DNA of 20,580 nucleotides from Barthelona sp. PCE (lineage: Eukaryota), in NCBI GenBank assembly GCA_040285745.1, contig JAUFOR010000002.1:2108001-2128580 (forward strand). Direction: 5' to 3'. Shown here in pieces: positions 7,743-20,580 of this stretch (its first letter is position 1; each line of letters starts with the position of its first letter). A program made the position numbers and the translations under genes. The notes beneath the pieces were generated by a model. It had not been told where the DNA came from, did not search any database, and was given only the letters and a program-made list of their open reading frames with translations.

Positions 7743-9818
7743 TCATGGTAATTGATACTCAAAGATGGACGCCTCCGCCATGAAAGATGGAAGGTGAAAT
7801 GTTTCGACTGTGGGATTCATCGATTCCGGGTCTTTATCAACGTTATATGTTTTTAAAATCATTGTCTTGGTTTCTTCTTCGTAAGACATATCTTGAACAG
7901 TGTTATTGGGTAGATTTGGATCGTGGCTTATCTTCATATCAGGAGAATATGGTAAATTGTCGTTTCTGAAAAAACGCGTCTTAATTGCACCTGCTTTGAC
8001 ATATGCTTCAATGATACCATCCTTAACGTGCATGTACGAATCTCCCACGAAATCTCGAAAAAAGTTGCCTTCCTCAATTTGTTCATGTTTGTAATACTGA
8101 AAAAGCAGAACAGGCTCTAAGTATCTTTCTGTTGACCAATCTAAACAATGTAAATGCTGTGTTTCTGCATTTATACTACCTGTGTATACAACAAACAGTT
8201 GATGATCAGCTGTTGCAGCCAATGGACGAGGATTGAAAAACACGTAACGAATATATTCGTTACGTTCACAAATAATGTGCTTTTGAATATCCACAACATA
8301 CCCGTTAATATTGAACCGAAAGAAATGGATTGCATTACTACACAGAATACACGCTGAATTATCAATATGTGAACCATGAGCACTTCTAACGGAAATATTC
8401 GGAGGAAGCTCCAAAATCACCTTACTGCCTAAATAAACCAAGCATGTATTATCTTCACGATAGTCAACATTAACGGGCAACCCTTGAATAAAACCAAAGT
8501 GTTTAGTGCCACAATGAGGTAAAATGGTTGTTGTGATGGGCATGGATTCTGGCCCACGCCAGTGAATTTTGATGTAAAACTCACCTTCTTCACTATGTTT
8601 CCATGCCACTACAAAAAAATCATCTCCTTCATCTGGTTGAACTGATTGGATCTCGTAGTTCGTACGTGATATACCCTTCAGAATAACAAGCTTCCTTTCT
8701 TTAAAACTGATGTAAAAATCATCATACACTTCCGCTATTCCATCAAAAAAAATTCCTGTTGGATTAAGACTTTTTAAATGCACAACCTCATTACCAACCT
8801 CACTGAATTTGATTGGGCCATAACGTCTTCTTCTATTCGCACCAAATAAAACACAACCTTCATCATGAAAGTAATTATCGTTCAAATCTATATGCTTCAA
8901 GTCATTGCAAAGTACATTATTAAGCTTCATTTCACCCTCTGACATCGTTAATTCACCGTTTTCGATATGAATCACCGTAAAACTTGATCCAATGAATACC
9001 ATAGACAGAACATCTTGGGTGAGCGTTAATAATGCAAAATTTGAGTTTCTGTTTAAAAACAAGCCCTTAAGCTGCGGAAACCTTTTTGTCAAGTTAACTC
9101 GGTTCCTTTGACTGTCAAATATTATTAGTTCATCAATTTCTTGATCGCGAAACCTGACTGAGCAAATACAATTACAATTTAAACAGTAAAAACAGTTAAT
9201 TATCTCATGTATGTGCTCAATATCAGGTTCATGTGACTCGTCCATGTCATCAACAGAAAAATTGTAATGCCATATGGAATCATCTTGGCAATTCCTCAAC
9301 AAAATGTAGTTTGGAGTTCTCACCGAAATTGAGTAATATTCTCCAAGACATCTATAATCATAGGTTATAACATTTAATATGTAGGATTGTATCACTCTTC
9401 TATTATTAACGGTTTCCCTAATGGCGAATAATAGATGATTTTCATCCATCGGAATTATTCTGCTTGATAGACTTTTGATCATCGGAAACGGAAAGGGTAT
9501 TCTCCTGCTTATATGTTCATCGCTCATGATATCATTAAACAATAAAATATCAAGATGGGTTAAAAAGTTACTGTCATAAAGCTCGTCAATTATCATGTAA
9601 GATTCTCCAGCTTTTAATTTGGATGTGTACTTAAGAGGCTCACCCGTGTCCTCCACATACCCAGCAAAGTCCTTGCCTTCAATGGCGCTTTCAATGAGGC
9701 TGATATCTTTGTTTTCTCTTGATGAAAGCAATCTTACGCCCTGGCCCTCAAATATAAGCTGCCCCTCAGGATACGCCTTCATTACAAGGTCATCCTCGAA
9801 TTTACGAACCCTGGGCAT
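7743..9818 (-). CDS. Hypothetical 691-aa protein, lineage-specific multigene family, copy A (intact)
   Basis: Uninterrupted ORF that is collinear along its whole length with the paralogue at 11588-13644. Confidence 0.9.
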   Translation of the reverse strand: MPRVRKFEDDLVMKAYPEGQLIFEGQGVRLLSSRENKDISLIESAIEGKDFAGYVEDTGEPLKYTSKLKAGESYMIIDELYDSNFLTHLDILLFNDIMSDEHISRRIPFPFPMIKSLSSRIIPMDENHLLFAIRETVNNRRVIQSYILNVITYDYRCLGEYYSISVRTPNYILLRNCQDDSIWHYNFSVDDMDESHEPDIEHIHEIINCFYCLNCNCICSVRFRDQEIDELIIFDSQRNRVNLTKRFPQLKGLFLNRNSNFALLTLTQDVLSMVFIGSSFTVIHIENGELTMSEGEMKLNNVLCNDLKHIDLNDNYFHDEGCVLFGANRRRRYGPIKFSEVGNEVVHLKSLNPTGIFFDGIAEVYDDFYISFKERKLVILKGISRTNYEIQSVQPDEGDDFFVVAWKHSEEGEFYIKIHWRGPESMPITTTILPHCGTKHFGFIQGLPVNVDYREDNTCLVYLGSKVILELPPNISVRSAHGSHIDNSACILCSNAIHFFRFNINGYVVDIQKHIICERNEYIRYVFFNPRPLAATADHQLFVVYTGSINAETQHLHCLDWSTERYLEPVLLFQYYKHEQIEEGNFFRDFVGDSYMHVKDGIIEAYVKAGAIKTRFFRNDNLPYSPDMKISHDPNLPNNTVQDMSYEEETKTMILKTYNVDKDPESMNPTVETFHLPSFMAEASIFEYQLP
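9592..9818 (-). repeat. Near-identical 5' header shared with 13418-13644
   Basis: Manual alignment gives about 11 substitutions over ~227 nt and no indels. Confidence 0.9.
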
Positions 9819-9883
9819 GTGGATGTGGTGAGAATTCCTGAAACAATGAACAAATTTTCATAACCTCTTTCAGCTCGAAATTT

Positions 9884-11587: not shown

Positions 11588-13644
11588 TTAATCTGGCATA
11601 TGGTACTCAAAGATGGACGCTTCCGCCAGGAACGATGGAAGGTGGAACGTTTCCACTGTGGGATTCATCGATTCCGTATCTTCCTCAACATTATACGTTT
11701 TCAACACCATTGACTTGGTCTCTCCTTCGTAAATAACTTTCTGAATAGTGTTGTTAGGTAGATTATGATTTTGGCTTAAATTCACAATAGGGAAACTATT
11801 GTTAGTGAAAAATCTTGTTTTGATAGCACCATCTTCAACGTATGCTTTAATAATACCATGCCATACATGTATGTATGAATCACCCACGAAATTAAGGAAA
11901 AAGTTACCTTCCTCCGTTCCATCATATGATCTCTTCCAAAGGAGAAAAGGCTCTAAGAAGCTTCCTGTTGACCAATCAAGACAATGTAAATGTTGCGTTT
12001 CTGCTTCTGCTTCTTCACTGTGTGAATGTACAACAAACAGCTGATGATCAGGTGTTTCAACCAATGGACGAGGGTTGAAGTAAAAATTAAAATATTCAGA
12101 TTCAAACACAATGTGATTTTGAACCTCCACGTCATACCCGTTGACATTGAACCGAAAAAAATGGATTGCTCCATAACATACAATGCAAGCTGAATTATCA
12201 AAATGTGAATCATAAACTTTTCTAACTTTCACATTCGGTGGAAATTCAAAAATCATCTTTTCTCCCAAATATACCAGACCACGGTCAACATTTAAGGGCA
12301 ACCCTTGAATGAAACCACGGTTTTCAGAGCCACAATGAGGCAAAATGGTTGTGATTGGCTTGGATTCTGAGCCTGTCCAGCATAATTTGCTATATGCACA
12401 ACCATGTACCTTTGCGAATACAACAAATTCATCTCCTTCATTTGGTTGAACTGATCGGATCTTACACCCACGCAGCACAATAAGTTTCCTTTCTTTGAAA
12501 AAAAAGTAACATCTTATCGAAGAGTTATCATCATTCACTTCAGCTATTCCATCAAAAAAAATTCGTTTTGGTTGAAGACTGTTCAAACTCACAACCTCAT
12601 TATCAACTGCTCTGAATTTGATTGGGCCATAACGTTCTGGTATTTTATCAACACTATAAAAAACACAATCTTCATCATGAAAGTAATTATTCAAGTCTAT
12701 ATGCTTCCAGCCATCGCAAATTACGTACTTAAAATTCAGTTTACCCTCTGACATCTTCAATTCACCGTTTTCGATATGAACCATTGTGAATCTTGAACCA
12801 ATGAGTACCATTGACAAAACATTTTGAGTGAGCGTTAATAATGCAAATTTTGAGTTTTCCTTAATATTCAATCCTTTAAGCTGCGGAAACCTTTCTGTCA
12901 AGTTAACTTGGTTCCTCTGACAGTCAAATATTATTAGTTCATCAACTTTCCCATAAGTAACCTGACTGAGAAAATGCAATCCGAGTTTAAGCACCCGAAG
13001 TGTTCTAAATGAACACCATGCAACTGCTCAATATCAGGTTCATGTGCTTCGTCCATGTCATCAACAGAAAAATTGTAATGCCATATGGTATCATCTTGGC
13101 ATTTCTTTAACAAAATGTAGTTTGAATTAATGATTGATTGAAAGCTAGATTGAAAGCTATACTCTCCAAGACATCGATATTCATCGGTTAGCACATTTAA
13201 TATGTAGCACAGAATCACTTGCCTGTTATTAACGGTATAACTAATGGTGAATAGTAGGTGGTTTTCATCCATCGGAAATATTCTGCTAATTTGAAACCTT
13301 CCTATGTTGTCAAAAGGGAAGCGTATTCTTCTGCTTGTATGTTCATCACTCATGATATGATCAAATAATAAGATATCAAGATGGGTTAAAATACGATCTT
13401 CAAAAAGCTTTTCGATGATCATGTAAGATTCTCCAGCTTTTAATTTGGATGTGTACTTAAGAGGCTTACACGTATCCTCCACATACCCAACAAAGTCCTT
13501 GCCTTCAATGGCGCTTTCAATGAGGCTTATATCTTTGTTTTCTCTTGATGAAAGCAATCTTACGCCCTTTCCCTCAAATATCATCTGCCCCTCGGGATAT
13601 GCCTTCATTACAAGGTCATCCTCGAATTTACGAACCCTGGGCAT
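11588..13644 (-). pseudogene. Family copy B, split by a 1-nt frameshift near 12955-12960 (pseudogene, assembly indel, or recoded gene)
   Basis: ORF 12934-13644 matches the N-terminus of copy A and ORF 11588-12994 matches the remainder. Copy A reads AGG TTT CGC GAT CAA GAA ATT GAT and copy B reads AGG TT- ACT TAT GGG AAA GTT GAT, so one base is missing. No other stops. Confidence 0.85.
13418..13644 (-). repeat. Near-identical 5' header shared with 9592-9818
   Basis: Same alignment as above; encodes MPRVRKFEDD...KLKAGESYMI. Confidence 0.9.
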
Positions 13645-13707
13645 ATATAGCTGTAATGAAGTAGGTGAATATTAAGATAGCTTGCATATATTAAATATTA
13701 GTGCTTG

Positions 13708-13861: not shown

Positions 13862-14189
13862 TAGGCATTGGCTTGGTTGTGGGGCACTTTTTAGCTGCGT
13901 TGTGGTACGATTTCAGATATATTTGAGTGTTTTGCAGATGAACTACAACCCAAATTTTATTCTTTTATGGTTTCCTATTTATTTTTTGTGTACTATCTTT
14001 ACTGAAATACTATAAACTTTCAGATGTAAGGACTTGAAGAAGGTAAGCCGCCTTTTGGGACGTGCTTCATTGCACATGCATAAGCATTCAGTAAACACCG
14101 CTGCATGCGTCACTGGATGCTGGACTGCGCCAAAACTTCTGTTTCCAAATTTTCAGCCAAATTCTCATCAGATTTTCCTGATTTACACG

Positions 14190-14440
14190 ATGCCAACCGT
14201 AAATCGCGAACGTGAGGACGATGATATCGACGTCCAAACGCCTTTTGAGTATGTGCTGGACTTGAATTATCCAGATACAACTCTTTTGGTGGCATTACGA
14301 AAGTCATGATGCCAATCTTGTCGCCAAAGATACCAATTTTGGTGACATATAGGAAGAGATCCGGTTGCTGACAGGATGTTCGACTGATGTATGTTTGTTG
14401 AAAGAGACGAAGGTTTAAAAATTGAATAATAAGAGGGAGA
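14190..14440 (+). pseudogene. Probable decayed gene start (MPTVNREREDD...), disrupted after ~39 codons
   Basis: ATG at 14190 follows TTTTCA/TCTCA motifs, and the start resembles the family start MPRVRKFEDD. Protein-like sequence continues in another frame (HDANLVAKDTNFGDI*EEIRLLTG) with stops. The 3' extent is uncertain. Confidence 0.4.
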
Positions 14441-15380
14441 ATCGAAATTCTATTTTTTATCCAAGGTATCGTTTCAAATGGATGTACGATATGGATGCTT
14501 CATAAGAATATTGTACAACTGCTTATGCTTACAAATCACTAATTTTCAGATTTGTATTTAATCACTCAGTCAGAGAATGTTGTTTTTAATGTTTTCTATT
14601 TCTTTATGTGGAATCGGGATATTGAGATATTTCATATGTTTTTGCAGTATCCCAGTGACACAATGTCTCTCATCATTGATTTGCATCATCATGGACAGTG
14701 AATAGTGAGAATAACTTGATGGCAATTATGAATATGCACTGCAGCAGTGGAATCAAAGTTTGCTGAGACCGTCAAGTTGGTACAGCGTGACCCCAGCGTT
14801 GTCTTATATCGATAATAAATGCGTGAATATTAAGTTTGAACTTTTTTGAAAACAGAAATGAAAGCATTCTTTTGTCATGACTGGTTGGAGCAGCATTTTG
14901 AATTCTTTTGAGTAAGCATTTTACCGTGTTATGCATGCGCTCATCCGTTGTAAGCCTGGCATAACTCGGTGCATACAGAGATACAGTTGCAGGTTCATGC
15001 ATGCGGCATCTCTGGCTATTTGAATGTGTTGTGCAATTGGTTAGTATGTGCTTATAAGTGGTGCAGCTCTGGTATAGCAATAAATTTGAGCTCAAAGAAA
15101 GAAAAAAATGTTGCGCGCACCTGCAATGCTCTGTGCATATTTCCGTCGTGATGGGGTTGATATATATGATATGTATTGCAGCGTGTAGCAGGACTGCGAG
15201 TGGAATCTCAATGGAAAAAAAGATACGTTTTTTCTCGGCGCTGCGTGGCTATTTCTTCATTTCAATCAAGTTTAGTGTTAGTATATGTGCTTCTTGTGTG
15301 TGGAGACCAATTTTGATTGGGAGCGTGAATTCTTAAGAGGAGAAATGAGCTCTTAGAAATTCTCAACTAGAAAGTTACCC

Positions 15381-15930
15381 CTAATAAGTCTGCTAATAAA
15401 ATGAGAGAAATGCTACCGTGGAAATTTGGTTTTGTTAATATTTTTATTAGTATTGGGTGTGAGTTGAGTTTTGGAAACCATTAATACGATACATCATAGA
15501 TGTGATATATACAATAGACATTATCAAATGCAAACTGTAATATATGATTTTATCAGGAATGGACCTTATTCTGATTTCACTAATATAATATATTAGCAAT
15601 TCTTTTAGATATTCGCGTGGAATTTAGTATTTACTAATATTTGTGTTTGTGAACTTTTTGAGTTCGCATCACTATTGTTAAGATTTTTTTGTGATGCCCA
15701 ACTTTTGGAATTCACTAATATTTTTATTAGCAATTCGCTTAAAGTGAGCACAAGCGAATTTTTTTATTAGGCGCTAATGAATTATATTAGGGAGAAAATG
15801 AATAATTGGCGAGAAATCCCCGTTTACTAACATTTTTATTACTAATATTTTTGAGATGGTCAAAACAAATCAAACTCCGCCGAAACGCGCATAGACCAAA
15901 AATCTTGGGTAGTAGTAAATAGTTTATTAG
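15381..15930. repeat. AT-rich array of CTAATA/TATTAG hexamers, several arranged as CTAATA-N4/5-TATTAG dyads
   Basis: CTAATA at 15381, 15393, 15580, 15634, 15715 and 15842. TATTAG at 15445, 15591, 15725, 15765, 15785 and 15925. Confidence 0.8.
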
Positions 15931-15995
15931 TTTTCGAGCAAGCTGTCCCGGATTCTCGTATGTACTGTTCCTTGGTCTTCTGCTAACTGTTAGTA

Positions 15996-17641
15996 TCAGA
16001 CTCTACGCCTGCTCCTTGCTGCCCTCATAATGTTCTTCATAGCATAAGCGTGAAAAGCAAATAGATGGTAGCTAAGACCTTTTTTAAGTTTCGTTCCACT
16101 GGTCTTAATTGATTGCGACGTTGATCTCTCGTTCAACGACTCGAGCACCTGTTCCCACGACGTGTAAGCTAGCTCGAAATTGTATTTCTCGCGTGCCTTC
16201 GACGTCGGTTCCCACAACATCGGATCCCAAATGGCTCCTCCGTGCGCAACGGCCATAATCTTGACCGGCGGGTCATCAAAGTTTTTGTACTTATTTAGCT
16301 TCTTGTAAAAATAGGCTGCACGTACGTGACCTCGATCTTTGCTCGTGAACGGCGATGTAGTCATAACATCCACCACAACCTTGGGTCCGCTTGCTTCCAG
16401 TATTGCAAAATCTGGTCGCTTACGTTCTTTCCGATTGGGGCACGACTCACCACTTTCGTACCGTTCATGTGTCCAACCCAATTGTACACGATGTATGTCA
16501 CTGTACTCCTCAAACTTTCTTTTAGGAATTGGCTTATCCAAGTTGAAAATATGAGCATTTCCTGATTTTCGAACAGTATCAACTGTTTTCTCAAGAATGT
16601 TGTTGTGCAGTTTGACGACAAGACCGTGATTTTTTGAACAAGAATAATGATGACTTCTTCTGTCCAAAACCTTCTCTCCACAGAAGTTGCACCGCCCAGA
16701 GGCGTACATTTCGCGAAGTTCAGGGAACAACAATTGGTATATACCGGCTAAAGCATAACCAAACATGTAACGCTCATCAAACATTGAATGAATATTGGCA
16801 ACTGACCTTTGGGGCCATGTGGCGACGGTAGCATCGAGTGACCAGGCAACAGAACGCTGAGACATCAAGGCGTCTCGGGATATAAATGATTCTGGATGGA
16901 AACGACAATGTTTGATCGCATAATCAAACAATTCGAAAAAACGTTTTGTGAGAATGTTTTGTAGTTTGCTTTTTTGACGCACAATATTAGTAGCCATACT
17001 GATCTCAACATCGTACGACTCCATCTGAGTGTGCTGCCCATAGTTTACGGCAAGCCACAGTAAATTTGAAGCAAATTCATGCTTTGTTTCACTGTTAAGA
17101 GAAACTGCTTCCACAAGTTTGTGTTGGCAATCCTCATCTTGGTAATGAGCATCCGGCATAAAGTAGGGTTTGTTATCTTTGTCATAGTTGAATCTAGCTG
17201 CGGCCAAATAACGTGGGCTAAGCCTAGTGAAATCCGACCACTCAATCAAATTGAAACGCTTGATTGAGCTACTTACCGAAGCGGTACTTGCCAAGTCAGC
17301 TATTTTGTGGAGAAACACAAAGTCTAGACAACCAGTCCCACCAAGAGACAAAGGATAACGGAGAGTTGGAGCTTCATCGATCGATAACTCATCGGCTCCA
17401 GGAATCATCTCAAGAAGTAAATTCTGTTTGATGGTCCTTTCCATATCATCAACTGCATCTTCAGTGAGAGTCACCGAGCGTACGTGATGAATGAGCATCT
17501 GATCAATCGACATAGAAGCAAGATACTTGAACAAAGCTGTCCCTGGACTTATATACTCGAGAAGTTGTTTGACGCCATTGCTAAATCTTGCGCATGCATG
17601 ACTAACATTAAAGTCGCCAATCTGAGTACCTAACAATTGAT
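15996..17641 (-). CDS. Retrotransposon ORF segment 3: RT domain 7/thumb, CCHC zinc knuckle and restriction-like endonuclease
   Basis: YQLLGTQIG (RT motif 7, KxLG..IG), PLSLGGTG (cf. P...GGLG), CNFCGEKVLDRRSHHYSC (C-x2-C-x9-H-x3-C), LHN (RHD/RHN motif), RPDF, VDV and KKLNKY. Confidence 0.9.
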
Positions 17642-18546
17642 AAAAAAGCTAAGCTTAAGTTGTGGGTAGCGATGTTCTCTTGCTCTTCACCTCTTGGAAA
17701 TATCCTTGAAGCGAAAGCAATACTCCCGGCTCCATACCCCACCAGCTCACACTTCTCAGCGTTCACTTTCAGGTTATAGAACTCGAGCTTACCCTTGATT
17801 ACATCAAAGGTTGACATGACAGTTGATGGTTCACCAACAATATAAATATCGTCAGCATACGCGTACATATTGACTGAATCTGGGGCTACGGCTTTCGTAT
17901 CCTTCAAAACTTCAGCAATAAGAAGAGCAAACAACAACGGAGACGTTGCGTTACCCTGTAACACGCCCATACAACTATCAAAAGGAAGGCGCTCTCCATT
18001 CGACCAAATCGGAATTGGCCTTTTGCACATCTGATGATATGCTTGGAAGCACCAAGGAGCATGTGCAGCGACAATATGCAGCAGCTTGTCACGACGAACG
18101 CTGTTGAAGGCGTTAGCAATGTCAATAACAAGAGCAACATTACGATCACTTCGCTTTAGATTAACATCCACGAGGTTTGCGACCAGAGCAGTAGCATCCC
18201 GCATCCCAGCACCGAATTGTTTGTGTTTAAACAAGTACTTTTTGACACGTTCAGACTGAAACTTCAGATCTTGACTCGCGATGATCTTATCAGCGATACC
18301 ACCGAGTGCAGAGGCAACTGCGATGGGGCGTACAGGCATATGCTCACCCTCTTGAAGCTCCTCCACATGCTTTTTGTTAAGAGCAATTAGTCGGATATTC
18401 CAAAGGGCCCACGGGCGCGATCCGAACGCATAATCATTGATAACTTGAGTAAAAGCATCCATGTAGCGATCGTTACGATAGATTTCAGCCACAAATAACT
18501 TAAGTAAATATGGCATCACTCCATCGGCACCGGCAGAAATGTACTT
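17608..18546 (-). CDS. Retrotransposon ORF segment 2: reverse transcriptase
   Basis: SAGADG (cf. SAPGPDG), VRPIAV, KQFGAG, DIANAFNSV, GVLQGNATSPLLF, YAYADD (YADD at 17859-17848) and LKVNAEKC. Confidence 0.95.
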   Translation of the reverse strand, partial: KYISAGADGVMPYLLKLFVAEIYRNDRYMDAFTQVINDYAFGSRPWALWNIRLIALNKKHVEELQEGEHMPVRPIAVASALGGIADKIIASQDLKFQSERVKKYLFKHKQFGAGMRDATALVANLVDVNLKRSDRNVALVIDIANAFNSVRRDKLLHIVAAHAPWCFQAYHQMCKRPIPIWSNGERLPFDSCMGVLQGNATSPLLFALLIAEVLKDTKAVAPDSVNMYAYADDIYIVGEPSTVMSTFDVIKGKLEFYNLKVNAEKCELVGYGAGSIAFASRIFPRGEEQENIATHNLSLAFLSIVRYSDWRL

Positions 18547-20319
18547 TTATTCTTTTTTGGTGGTCTCATACACCATATCTTTCGATATTATGAATTCCTC
18601 AGGGTCCCACTCACCTCTCTTGAAAGAACTCATGGTTTCGCGCAGAATCGCATCAGAAACTGGTGCACTGACTGGATGCTTTGATTGCATCTGTTCCAGC
18701 ACGTTAGTATCTGATAAAGGCATGGTACCTTGACTCTTTGCTAGCCTTATGGCCTTTCCTGGTTGGTTGGCGTCTGCGTACTTCTTCATACGAAGGCTTA
18801 CAGACTCCCTAGACTCAACGGATGGCTGATTGGAACGTTGCCTCGGCGTCTTACCAAAACATAGCGCAGAAGCTGCAACTATTAGAGCCTCGCCTATACA
18901 TCGTTGAGACTCACGTAATGGAGTATTCCGTATTAACAAACCAATCTTCAGGACACAGAAATATAGCTTTCTTGATTTCTTATCACCAATTAAATTATCT
19001 TGGTTCTCGATAACTTTCTGAAAAACAAACTCATTAAAAACTTCTAGAGCATCGTCTTTGTCTAGGTCTGGTCGTAAAGAATGTAGAGCCAGGACCCCGG
19101 ACAATTTGTTGACAAACTCCTTGATTCTCACAAGTGTTTCAATATTACCGCTCTGCCACTGAGGCAATCGCGGTGGATTAGCGCAATAAGCGCCCAGAAG
19201 TTCTCCAAAGAAATCTTCAGCAACTCTTCTCTCAGCAATTTCGCTATTACCGTCAGTTGCACAAAGTCGATTGAATCGGACCAGCGGGTCGTACAGTAAA
19301 ATGGGGAAAGTGTATTCCATACGAGAACTTGAAACTGGGTATGTAACATTGCTCATAATAGGAGGAGCTTGGTTGGTAACACTGCTCGTAACAGGAATTG
19401 AAGGCGTCGGGTTAGTATCTACCGGGTCAACATCCAATGTATGTGACTGTGACTGGTTCCGGTTAACCAATGCTGGCGCTCCAACTTCTTGGAAGACAGG
19501 ATCATGCGATTCTGGATCACTTTCCACCTTAAAAATATGACTGAGTAGAGGAATCATTCTACTACTAAAACATGGGAAGAGACGGTACAATTTTCTACTT
19601 CCATTGAATTCCAAACAGGCCTTGATAAACGCAAACATCACGAAATAGAAATTATCCGTGAACGGTTCTACATTCTGCCAATGATAAACATTCTGGCCAC
19701 GCGAGTCCATTCTGAATTTCATACAAGACACACTTCTAACGAAATTGATTGCTGCCGGATGTAAAATCCTGCAACGCTCATCTTCCTTTTCCTCAGAAGC
19801 GACACTCCTTATAGTGTCATCCAAATGTGTGAATCTCTCGTCTCCAAACTTCTCATTGATAGCATGTACAATCTCGTTTGCATCAACACCAGTGCTGCAT
19901 ACTTTCAGGATAGCATGTGCAATAACGAGTTGTCCTCGTGTACCTGGGCTTGAAAGACGTACACCAACGGTTTCCATCTTCTCACCTTCAATACTGCGTA
20001 AAGACAACCAATCTGCGTCAGTGCACAAGCCACTCCACTGATCATGAACATTTTGTCGAATTATTTCTATGGACGGGGCTCTCCTGTTGTTTGAAGAAAC
20101 TTTCGTCCTTTGAATTATTGACAACATCTGCTCACCGAACTCTGTTAGTTGGTACTTGACATCTTCCTTAAAATACATAATTGTTTGCAAAGGACTATGT
20201 GGCGTAGTATCACTTGGATTGGCTAACATTGTTTCGAGTTCCTCATATACCCTCTCTATTTCTGGATCGGTTACATAAGCTGCAGGAGGAGTCCTAGATA
20301 CTTCTTGCTCTTCATACAA
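18547..20319 (-). CDS. Retrotransposon ORF segment 1: N-terminal region plus pre-RT (domain -1/0) motifs
   Basis: The C-terminal part, ANQPGKAIRLAKS...VLEQMQSKHP, matches the pre-RT motif of CRE-type elements. It ends in TAA (18549-18547), and the same frame continues as KYISAGADG. The start codon is uncertain (the track uses TTG). Confidence 0.75.
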   Translation of the reverse strand: MYEEQEVSRTPPAAYVTDPEIERVYEELETMLANPSDTTPHSPLQTIMYFKEDVKYQLTEFGEQMLSIIQRTKVSSNNRRAPSIEIIRQNVHDQWSGLCTDADWLSLRSIEGEKMETVGVRLSSPGTRGQLVIAHAILKVCSTGVDANEIVHAINEKFGDERFTHLDDTIRSVASEEKEDERCRILHPAAINFVRSVSCMKFRMDSRGQNVYHWQNVEPFTDNFYFVMFAFIKACLEFNGSRKLYRLFPCFSSRMIPLLSHIFKVESDPESHDPVFQEVGAPALVNRNQSQSHTLDVDPVDTNPTPSIPVTSSVTNQAPPIMSNVTYPVSSSRMEYTFPILLYDPLVRFNRLCATDGNSEIAERRVAEDFFGELLGAYCANPPRLPQWQSGNIETLVRIKEFVNKLSGVLALHSLRPDLDKDDALEVFNEFVFQKVIENQDNLIGDKKSRKLYFCVLKIGLLIRNTPLRESQRCIGEALIVAASALCFGKTPRQRSNQPSVESRESVSLRMKKYADANQPGKAIRLAKSQGTMPLSDTNVLEQMQSKHPVSAPVSDAILRETMSSFKRGEWDPEEFIISKDMVYETTKKE

Positions 20320-20580
20320 ATAATAATCATCATCATAAGTCCACTCTGGAAGTGGGGAGGTGAGTCTACAGTATCTGAAAATGTATCTGATAATGTATTG
20401 TGAAGAGAAAGGGTCACAAGGTTGAGCTGTGACTGTCGGTAGAGATATTCTACCACACTACTTGTCAGTTTTAGCGACAGAACACGACACAGTTGCAAAA
20501 CGCACGAAACCATGAAAATAGCGTCGTGGCATGCATATAATGATAACACAGTGTCGTGGGGGACAGCTTGGGCCCGTGTG

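What the first reader, a model, noticed from the sequence alone, without database searches (positions are those of the whole stretch)
15381..15930. Array of CTAATA-N4/5-TATTAG dyads at the retrotransposon's 3' end
Seen: 12 exact CTAATA/TATTAG hexamers in ~550 nt, where roughly one is expected at this AT content. They form five dyads: TTAATA-TTTT-TATTAG (15435), CTAATA-TAATA-TATTAG (15580), CTAATA-TTTT-TATTAG (15715), CTAATG-AATTA-TATTAG (15774) and CTAACA-TTTT-TATTAC (15827). The first three are ~140 nt apart, and two share the flanks TTCA...CAATTC. Spacers are not conserved, so this is not a simple satellite. Known: CRE/R2-type elements are often site-specific for repeated targets. Inference: iterated binding sites for a dimeric protein (centromere- or origin-like boxes). 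They may be the host target of this element or part of its 3' UTR; either could be an undescribed element-target pairing.
Basis: partly seen in the sequence, partly recalled or inferred. Interest (0 to 1): 0.75.

Follow-up and report, generated by a model that had tools for sequence, protein, structure and literature searches.

The report
Subtelomeric palindrome array at chromosome ends
A ~500-base cluster of six near-identical palindromes recurs, whole or cut short, at many ends of this single-celled eukaryote's genome, just inside the telomere repeat or a retrotransposon joined to the end, and likely serves as a landing pad for a paired DNA-binding protein that organises chromosome ends.

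Summary
In detail: 12 CTAATA/TATTAG hexamers against a shuffle mean of 0.8 (maximum 5). One lies inside the retroelement, and a sixth dyad was missed. The array is not the element's 3' UTR and not its fixed target. The window is the right end of contig C2, and the array is a subtelomeric core found whole or truncated at 8 of 16 contig ends. At C4-right it runs into (GGTCTATAT)x12, the telomere repeat, with no element. All 14 matches of the RT/REL retroelement lie near contig ends with their 3' ends inward. They join at six different points in or just beyond the array, and five other junctions have no array. Outside the array copies the dyad occurs at control level. A diverged copy keeps the motif block (31/36) amid barely alignable flanks; constraint among near-identical copies is not significant. 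Best reading: an iterated binding platform for a dimeric protein at chromosome ends, like Plasmodium SPE2 arrays. Binding is untested, and a neutral subtelomeric repeat remains possible. The telomere repeat is published; I found no report of the array or of this end-joined element.

The parts
15381..15908 (.). Subtelomeric dyad array (telomere-associated sequence); 11 exact CTAATA/TATTAG hexamers, six RCTAAYA-N4/5-TRTTAGY dyads
   Evidence: copies at 8 contig ends and a relic at G000:C3:1198720
15548..15908 (.). Core shared at 93-98% by ends with three different inner contexts (gene-family upstream region; tRNA-Leu/Pro at C5-right; tRNA-Val at C5-left)
15417..15452 (+). Composite unit CGTGGAAWTT + dyad 1 (dyad 15435-15450); kept at 31/36 in a diverged C5-right copy
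15580..15596 (.). Dyad 2, perfect 8-bp arms; kept (4-nt spacer) in the C3 relic
15616..15649 (+).
15715..15730 (.). Dyad 4; spacer varies between copies (TTTT or TCAT), arms invariant
15774..15790 (.). Dyad 5; perfect in C5-right
15827..15842 (.). Dyad 6; a retroelement junction falls in its left arm at C8:58063
15891..15908 (.). Truncated terminal hairpin with 9-bp arms (complete at C4-right) made of telomere-like words; the window's element junction lies in its right arm
15909..15995 (-). 3' terminus and 3' UTR of the retroelement (terminus 15912, with one extra 3-nt tail unit in this copy); holds the 12th hexamer
15996..20457 (-). Non-LTR retroelement coding region (RT, CCHC and REL endonuclease motif); three frames in this copy, a 1472-aa relative P0004 and open frames of 1559-1580 codons in two other copies
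14046..15380 (.). Inner subtelomeric segment shared by five other ends in full or part (89-97%)
11588..13671 (-). Member of an end-associated multigene family (about 700 aa, no Pfam family), pointing away from the end; paralogue at 7743-9857

Best explanation
The array is a conserved subtelomeric core that sits just inside the chromosome end, and its six inverted RCTAAYA pairs likely act as iterated binding sites for a dimeric DNA-binding protein that organises end chromatin. Shown: it lies at 8 of 16 contig ends; it leads into the telomere repeat at C4-right; the retroelement is joined outside it at variable points, 3' end inward, and is not needed for it. Inferred: a protein dimer reads the two half-sites across an A/T-rich 4-5 nt spacer, and six sites in 400 nt give cooperative loading that sets a silencing or boundary domain between the telomere (or retroelement array) and the end-associated gene family. 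Also inferred: the RT/REL element adds itself to ends by target-primed reverse transcription from a 3' OH on the telomeric strand, with some preference for telomere-like words, eroding the array in some ends. The binder is unknown; the three homeodomain proteins are the first candidates (TAAT cores; recalled rule, untested).
For: Location. Telomere repeat only at contig ends: 12 of 12 pattern hits are at C4-right and C8-right; the repeat is reported as telomeric for Barthelona sp. PCE in PMC11316075; a telomerase-like ORF is present. Motif confined to array copies: 15 of 18 exact dyads vs control 3, 19 of 22 degenerate dyads vs control 2, 10 of 10 composite units vs control 0. The same half-site recurs in unrelated flanks (identity 0.27-0.33 beyond 10 nt, random 0.29), and inverted repeats in general are not enriched (p 0.26-0.71), so the signal is this sequence and not hairpins as such. 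Footprint: C5-right keeps the 36-nt dyad-1 block at 31/36 while the flanks barely align (p 0.03 and 0.06 against shuffles); the C3 relic has 0/19 mismatches in half-sites vs 20/141 elsewhere (p 0.067). The core shared by three different inner contexts begins 30-50 nt inside dyad 2.
Against: No binding data. In 7 near-identical copies half-sites are not significantly less variable (5/72 vs 45/407 sites, p 0.40). The relic test is not significant, and the footprint rests on one diverged copy and one relic. The C7 end has element and telomere-like repeats but no array; C1-right keeps one dyad; at C8-left the array is 58 kb from the end, so it is not required next to the tip. A homology gradient from the tip is expected from end recombination alone. 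Yeast X elements, a close analogue, proved dispensable (PMC11042809 abstract). One draft assembly with noisy ends; no second species could be examined.
Confidence: 0.5

Rival explanations
1. Neutral subtelomeric repeat: an old duplicated ~36-nt unit decayed, and recombination between ends spread it; the dyads bind nothing that matters.
For: The composite unit occurs twice per copy, showing old duplication. The constraint test on near-identical copies is not significant (p 0.40). The array is absent or cut short at some ends. [quoted passage not shown]
Against: Identity is confined to the motif and ~10 nt of flank instead of decaying evenly, though this is partly ascertainment. The C5-right block is kept amid barely alignable flanks. 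No long-period tandem repeat was found.
Confidence: 0.3
2. Subtelomeric replication origin or origin enhancer, as with the ARS in the yeast X core.
For: AT-rich (GC 0.32), iterated sites, present at most resolved ends; the analogy is recalled.
Against: No match to the recalled yeast ACS pattern. The dyad is not enriched anywhere inside 0.1-2 Mb contigs, which need internal origins.
Confidence: 0.07
3. Recognition target of the retroelement: the REL endonuclease or its DNA-binding part reads the dyads.
For: 6 of 11 intact 3' junctions are in or just beyond the array.
Against: Junction positions vary over ~400 nt, only 1 of 6 lies in a half-site, and 5 of 11 junctions have no array. 4 of 9 junctions with a known uninterrupted sequence fall in a telomere-like word instead (background about 1%; post hoc).
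Confidence: 0.05
4. Structure-based element: hairpins or cruciforms in DNA, or a structured telomeric RNA.
For: The core folds better than shuffles as DNA (z -3.5) and as RNA (z -2.6).
Against: The excess comes from the dyads; other inverted repeats are at chance level. Structure would not need one recurring sequence. No Rfam family matched two array-bearing ends. The one stem with changes on both sides (15740 and 15752) becomes G-G.
Confidence: 0.05
5. Centromere box array, or the element's own 3' UTR.
For: Iterated dyads in AT-rich gene-free DNA; adjacency to the element.
Against: The array is at both ends of C2, C5 and C8. The element's 3' end maps to 15909/15912 in all 11 intact junctions, and the array exists without the element at C4-right.
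Confidence: 0.03

Closest known systems
Plasmodium falciparum SPE2 arrays bound by PfSIP2 (PMC2829057; abstract seen)
   Same: Clustered bipartite motifs almost confined to chromosome ends (94% there; 15/18 and 19/22 here), lying upstream of an end-associated multigene family.
   Different: Different sequence; inverted symmetry here (SPE2 as a direct repeat is recalled); binder unknown; AP2 family not searched; no silencing data.
S. cerevisiae core X / subtelomeric repeats (PMC11042809 abstract; listings)
   Same: A few hundred bases conserved at nearly all ends, with an optional mobile unit (Y' there, a retroelement here) between core and telomere repeat.
   Different: No match to the recalled ACS pattern; no sequence likeness tested or expected; the distal unit is an RT/REL retroelement.
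Giardia GilM/GilT telomeric retrotransposons (PMC10999387 and PMC10088271 passages)
   Same: Applies to the neighbouring element: telomeric LINE-like copies oriented so that reverse transcription runs toward the end, in a genome with telomerase, with rDNA nearby.
   Different: No sequence link shown (homologue searches gave one outside protein at 27% identity); no dyad array is mentioned in the passages read.
MoTeR / FoTeR fungal telomeric REL elements (PMC12857005 passages and section 19)
   Same: RT plus CCHC/REL motif, end-restricted, many truncated copies.
   Different: FoTeR 3' ends are always followed by 3-7 telomere repeats; here 0 of 11 intact 3' junctions carry a full repeat unit on the inner side.

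Membership tests
Telomere-associated (subtelomeric) sequence | Lies next to the telomere repeat | tested here: met
   C4-right: array, ~20 nt, then 12 repeat units to the contig end; the repeat occurs only at contig ends
Telomere-associated (subtelomeric) sequence | Shared by several chromosome ends, rare inside | tested here: met
   8 of 16 contig ends; one internal relic
SPE2/X-type protein-binding subtelomeric array | Iterated bipartite motif concentrated at ends | tested here: met
   15 of 18 and 19 of 22 dyads lie in array copies
SPE2/X-type protein-binding subtelomeric array | Motif more conserved than the sequence around it | tested here: inconclusive
   31/36 block vs barely alignable flanks; relic p 0.067; near-identical copies p 0.40
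SPE2/X-type protein-binding subtelomeric array | Bound by a specific protein in vivo, with a chromatin effect | not testable with these tools
   needs pull-down and ChIP
3' UTR of a non-LTR element | Travels with every intact 3' end | tested here: not met
   5 of 11 intact junctions lack it; the others include different lengths of it
Site-specific retroelement target (R2/CRE type) | One fixed cut position in the repeat, with the target continuing on the far side | tested here: not met
   Six different positions; the interrupted sequence did not continue distally in 4 of 4 cases checked
Regional or point centromere | One site per chromosome | tested here: not met
   Both ends of C2, C5 and C8; depends on the assembly being right
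Regional or point centromere | CenH3 occupancy | not testable with these tools
   needs ChIP
MEF2/CArG sites (patterns recalled) | 10-bp YTA(W)4TAR or CC(W)6GG | tested here: not met
   0 matches in 15381-15911
CRE-type REL retroelement (neighbour) | RT followed by CCHC and RHD/N...R/KPD..D/E motif | tested here: met
   RVT_1 E 4e-20; CX2C-X10-HX2C-X10-HN-X61-RPD-X13-D in P0004, with longer spacers than the pattern quoted in PMC12857005
CRE-type REL retroelement (neighbour) | Groups with CRE elements in an RT tree | not tested
   no named CRE sequences were returned
MoTeR/FoTeR mode of insertion (neighbour) | 3' end followed by several telomere repeats | tested here: not met
   0 of 11 junctions

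The most novel reading that the evidence does not exclude
In a lineage whose telomere repeat has become G-poor (GGTCTATAT), end identity has moved partly into the subtelomere: a dimeric protein, perhaps a homeodomain protein, loads on the dyad array, marks the DNA beyond it as a chromosome end, and steers both telomerase and an end-adding REL retroelement there. The array would then be a telomere-seeding element, and the retroelement a second end-healing system that cuts or primes at telomere-like words and caps broken ends.
Probability: 0.12. Interest if true: 0.8.

Novelty: new member of a known kind. Interest (0 to 1): 0.5.

Why it matters
The paper that reported this odd telomere repeat says its significance is unknown (PMC11316075), and no shelterin component is known in Giardia (PMC10999387). 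A short motif confined to chromosome ends gives ready bait for finding the end-binding proteins of a free-living metamonad. The neighbouring element extends Giardia-like retrotransposon-built ends to a related lineage, with a junction pattern unlike the fungal telomeric elements. If the array proves neutral, it is an ordinary subtelomeric repeat.

Tried and rejected
Tandem-repeat origin: TRF found only 12-15 nt two-copy rows in the array. Paper search for six 9-mers of the telomere repeat: 30 of 725 listed, none on telomere repeats by title; the report was found through the genus name. Metagenome scan with a 30-nt array pattern: 0 hits, uninformative on relatives. Sequencing runs: 3 listed, no RNA holder listed; two contigs covered only the element, from 15916 and 15925 on, and none covered the array, which proves nothing on absence or expression. 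Rfam on four stretches including two array-bearing ends: only a 5S gene. Recalled MEF2, CArG and yeast ACS patterns: no match; one TACTAAC (branch-point-like, recalled) at 15825, rejected because half-sites lie on both strands. The first junction test used two wrong anchors and a looser rule; one search is the corrected run, and its word rule was set after seeing the junctions. Searches of solved structures and of the protein atlas gave no named clade for the element and no family for the 700-aa genes. The scan's earlier findings held nothing. POT1/TRF, AP2, ARID, ORC and CenH3 were not searched.

Full report
1. Observation. The 12 hexamers are at the stated places. Local dinucleotide shuffles of 15381-15930 give a mean of 0.77 and a maximum of 5 in 3000 runs; dyads with 0, <=1 and <=2 mismatches number 2, 4 and 7 against means of 0.0003, 0.013 and 0.25. 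The half-site is RCTAAYA (9 exact vs 0.43). Their spacing is irregular. The twelfth hexamer belongs to the retroelement.

2. Setting. The window is G000:C2:2108001-2128580, the last 20.6 kb of its contig, in a 10.2-Mb, 8-contig genome. The closest named proteins to the RT (57-97% identity) are labelled Barthelona sp. PCE by their source, a free-living metamonad according to PMC11316075.

3. Copies of the array. The 15250-16000 stretch has 82-97% copies at C2-left, C8-right, C8:58 kb, C4-right, C5-right, C5-left (the contig stops inside it) and C1-right (cut after dyad 1), plus a 130-nt relic inside C3. I looked at about 10 kb at each of the 16 contig ends. Eight carry the array. One (C7-right) has element and telomere-like repeats without it. 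Four (C1-, C3-, C4-left, C3-right) stop inside the end-associated gene family or its upstream region, one stops in rDNA, and two show no match to the window. So 8 of the 9 ends that reach a terminal structure carry it. Genome-wide, 15 of 18 exact dyads (control 3), 19 of 22 degenerate dyads (control 2) and 10 of 10 composite CGTGGAAWTT-plus-dyad units (control 0) lie in these copies. Outside them the motif is at control level.

4. The empty site. At C4-right the array is followed, after about 20 nt, by 12 copies of GGTCTATAT up to the contig end, with no retroelement. A two-unit pattern of this repeat hits only C4-right and C8-right (12 of 12); a degenerate form ends C7. PMC11316075 reports two contigs of Barthelona sp. 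PCE ending in an unusual telomere repeat written TATATGGTCT and says its significance is unknown (passages). A telomerase RNA-binding domain lies in a long open frame with an RT-like region at C3:19934. The array is therefore subtelomeric.

5. The retroelement. All 14 DNA matches lie within 58 kb of a contig end with the 3' end pointing inward, and all 27 matches of its C-terminal part fall in the same copies. It has an RT and a CCHC/REL motif. Eleven intact 3' ends (the window plus 10) begin at the same terminus, window 15909/15912. Six join the array region, at window-equivalent 15515, 15827, 15895, 15908 and two near 15920. Five join other DNA: the element's own 3' UTR, its own 5' UTR, the rDNA spacer (two copies of one event) and a single-copy coding stretch on C7. 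In 4 of 4 cases checked the interrupted sequence does not resume beyond the element. At C8-right a truncated copy is capped by telomere repeats. This fits addition to chromosome ends, or cutting with loss of the distal piece (inferred). Four of 9 junctions with a known uninterrupted sequence fall in a telomere-like word of 6-8 nt, against a background of about 1%. This test is post hoc, two of the four lie in the terminal hairpin, and one junction is ambiguous, so it is a lead: if the element has a sequence target, it is the telomere repeat and not the dyad.

6. Are the dyads constrained? For: the same half-site recurs in flanks that are unrelated beyond 10 nt, and inverted repeats in general are not enriched. 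C5-right, whose inner context is a tRNA region, keeps the dyad-1 block at 31/36 while the 113-144 nt to dyad 2 and the 77 nt upstream barely align (p 0.03 and 0.06). The C3 relic has 0/19 mismatches in half-sites and 20/141 elsewhere (p 0.067); it also lost one arm of dyad 3 in a deletion. Against: across 7 near-identical copies 5/72 half-site positions vary, against 4/26 in spacers and 45/407 elsewhere (p 0.40). Some ends lack or truncate the array. The evidence leans toward constraint and does not prove it.

7. Mechanism. Shown: position, copy pattern, motif confinement, independence from the element. Inferred: a dimeric protein binds the inverted half-sites, and the cluster sets up a chromatin domain or boundary between the tip and the end-associated gene family, which points away from the end. 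The genome has 3 homeodomain and 11 Myb matches at 8 loci; that homeodomains read TAAT cores is recalled, and no binding was tested. Confidence is about 0.9 for 'subtelomeric core independent of the element' and 0.5 for the binding-platform function.

8. Comparison. It works most like the SPE2 arrays bound by PfSIP2 (PMC2829057, abstract) and is placed like the yeast X core, which proved dispensable (PMC11042809, abstract). It is a member of the class of telomere-associated sequences, not of either family. The element resembles Giardia GilM/GilT in position and orientation (PMC10999387 and PMC10088271, passages) and differs from FoTeRs, whose 3' ends are followed by 3-7 telomere repeats (PMC12857005, passages and section 19). 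Clade membership was not tested by tree.

9. Novelty. The main text of PMC11316075 has no word starting with subtelomer, retrotranspos or centromer, nor do its 6 searchable supplements; one supplement, a 3-page picture PDF, could not be read. Eight library searches listed no paper on this array or element; most subscription journals are not covered, and only the top listings were seen. The scan's own index held nothing.

10. Limits. One draft assembly; terminal stretches are noisy and a 23.5-kb unit at C8-left is duplicated, so end counts and pairings could be affected by misassembly. No relative's subtelomere and no RNA data were available.

Verdict: real, a new member of a known kind, interest 0.5.

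Noticed in passing
G000:C8:1-58063 (L046-L049, L052, L040): A 58-kb terminal array of six retroelement copies mixed with a 5S/rDNA spacer fragment and a second mobile-looking element with long frames on both strands; a 23.5-kb unit is duplicated at 98%.
   Followed up: partly
G000:C7:127200-127883 (L050): The element is joined to a single-copy coding stretch with no array, then 5' UTR repeats and degenerate telomere repeats: looks like a healed terminal break.
   Followed up: partly
G000:C4:1423024-1423131 (L039): The telomere unit is 9 nt (GGTCTATAT, 12 copies); the published form is written with 10 letters.
   Followed up: yes
G000:C3:19934-20278 (L067): Telomerase reverse transcriptase candidate in a frame of about 900 codons; its RNA template was not sought.
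   Followed up: no
G000:C6:1-10000 (L057): Tandem rDNA units of about 7.6 kb with a 5S gene in the spacer; this is the intact form of the spacer broken at two C8-left junctions.
   Followed up: partly
window 7743-9857 and 11588-13671: A ~700-aa multigene family without Pfam match sits next to most ends, pointing inward; weak atlas leads to beta-propeller clusters at or below 0.85.
   Followed up: partly
window 13910-14045: A 136-nt insertion relative to other ends, itself matched at many internal places: a small dispersed repeat.
   Followed up: no
G000:C8 spacers between element copies: The element's 5' UTR is built of ~700-nt tandem repeats, and new copies join inside them.
   Followed up: no
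G000:C5:760440-761420 and C5:669-1110 (L042, L044): Short repeats shared with the second C8-left element lie beside tRNA genes just inside the array at both C5 ends.
   Followed up: no
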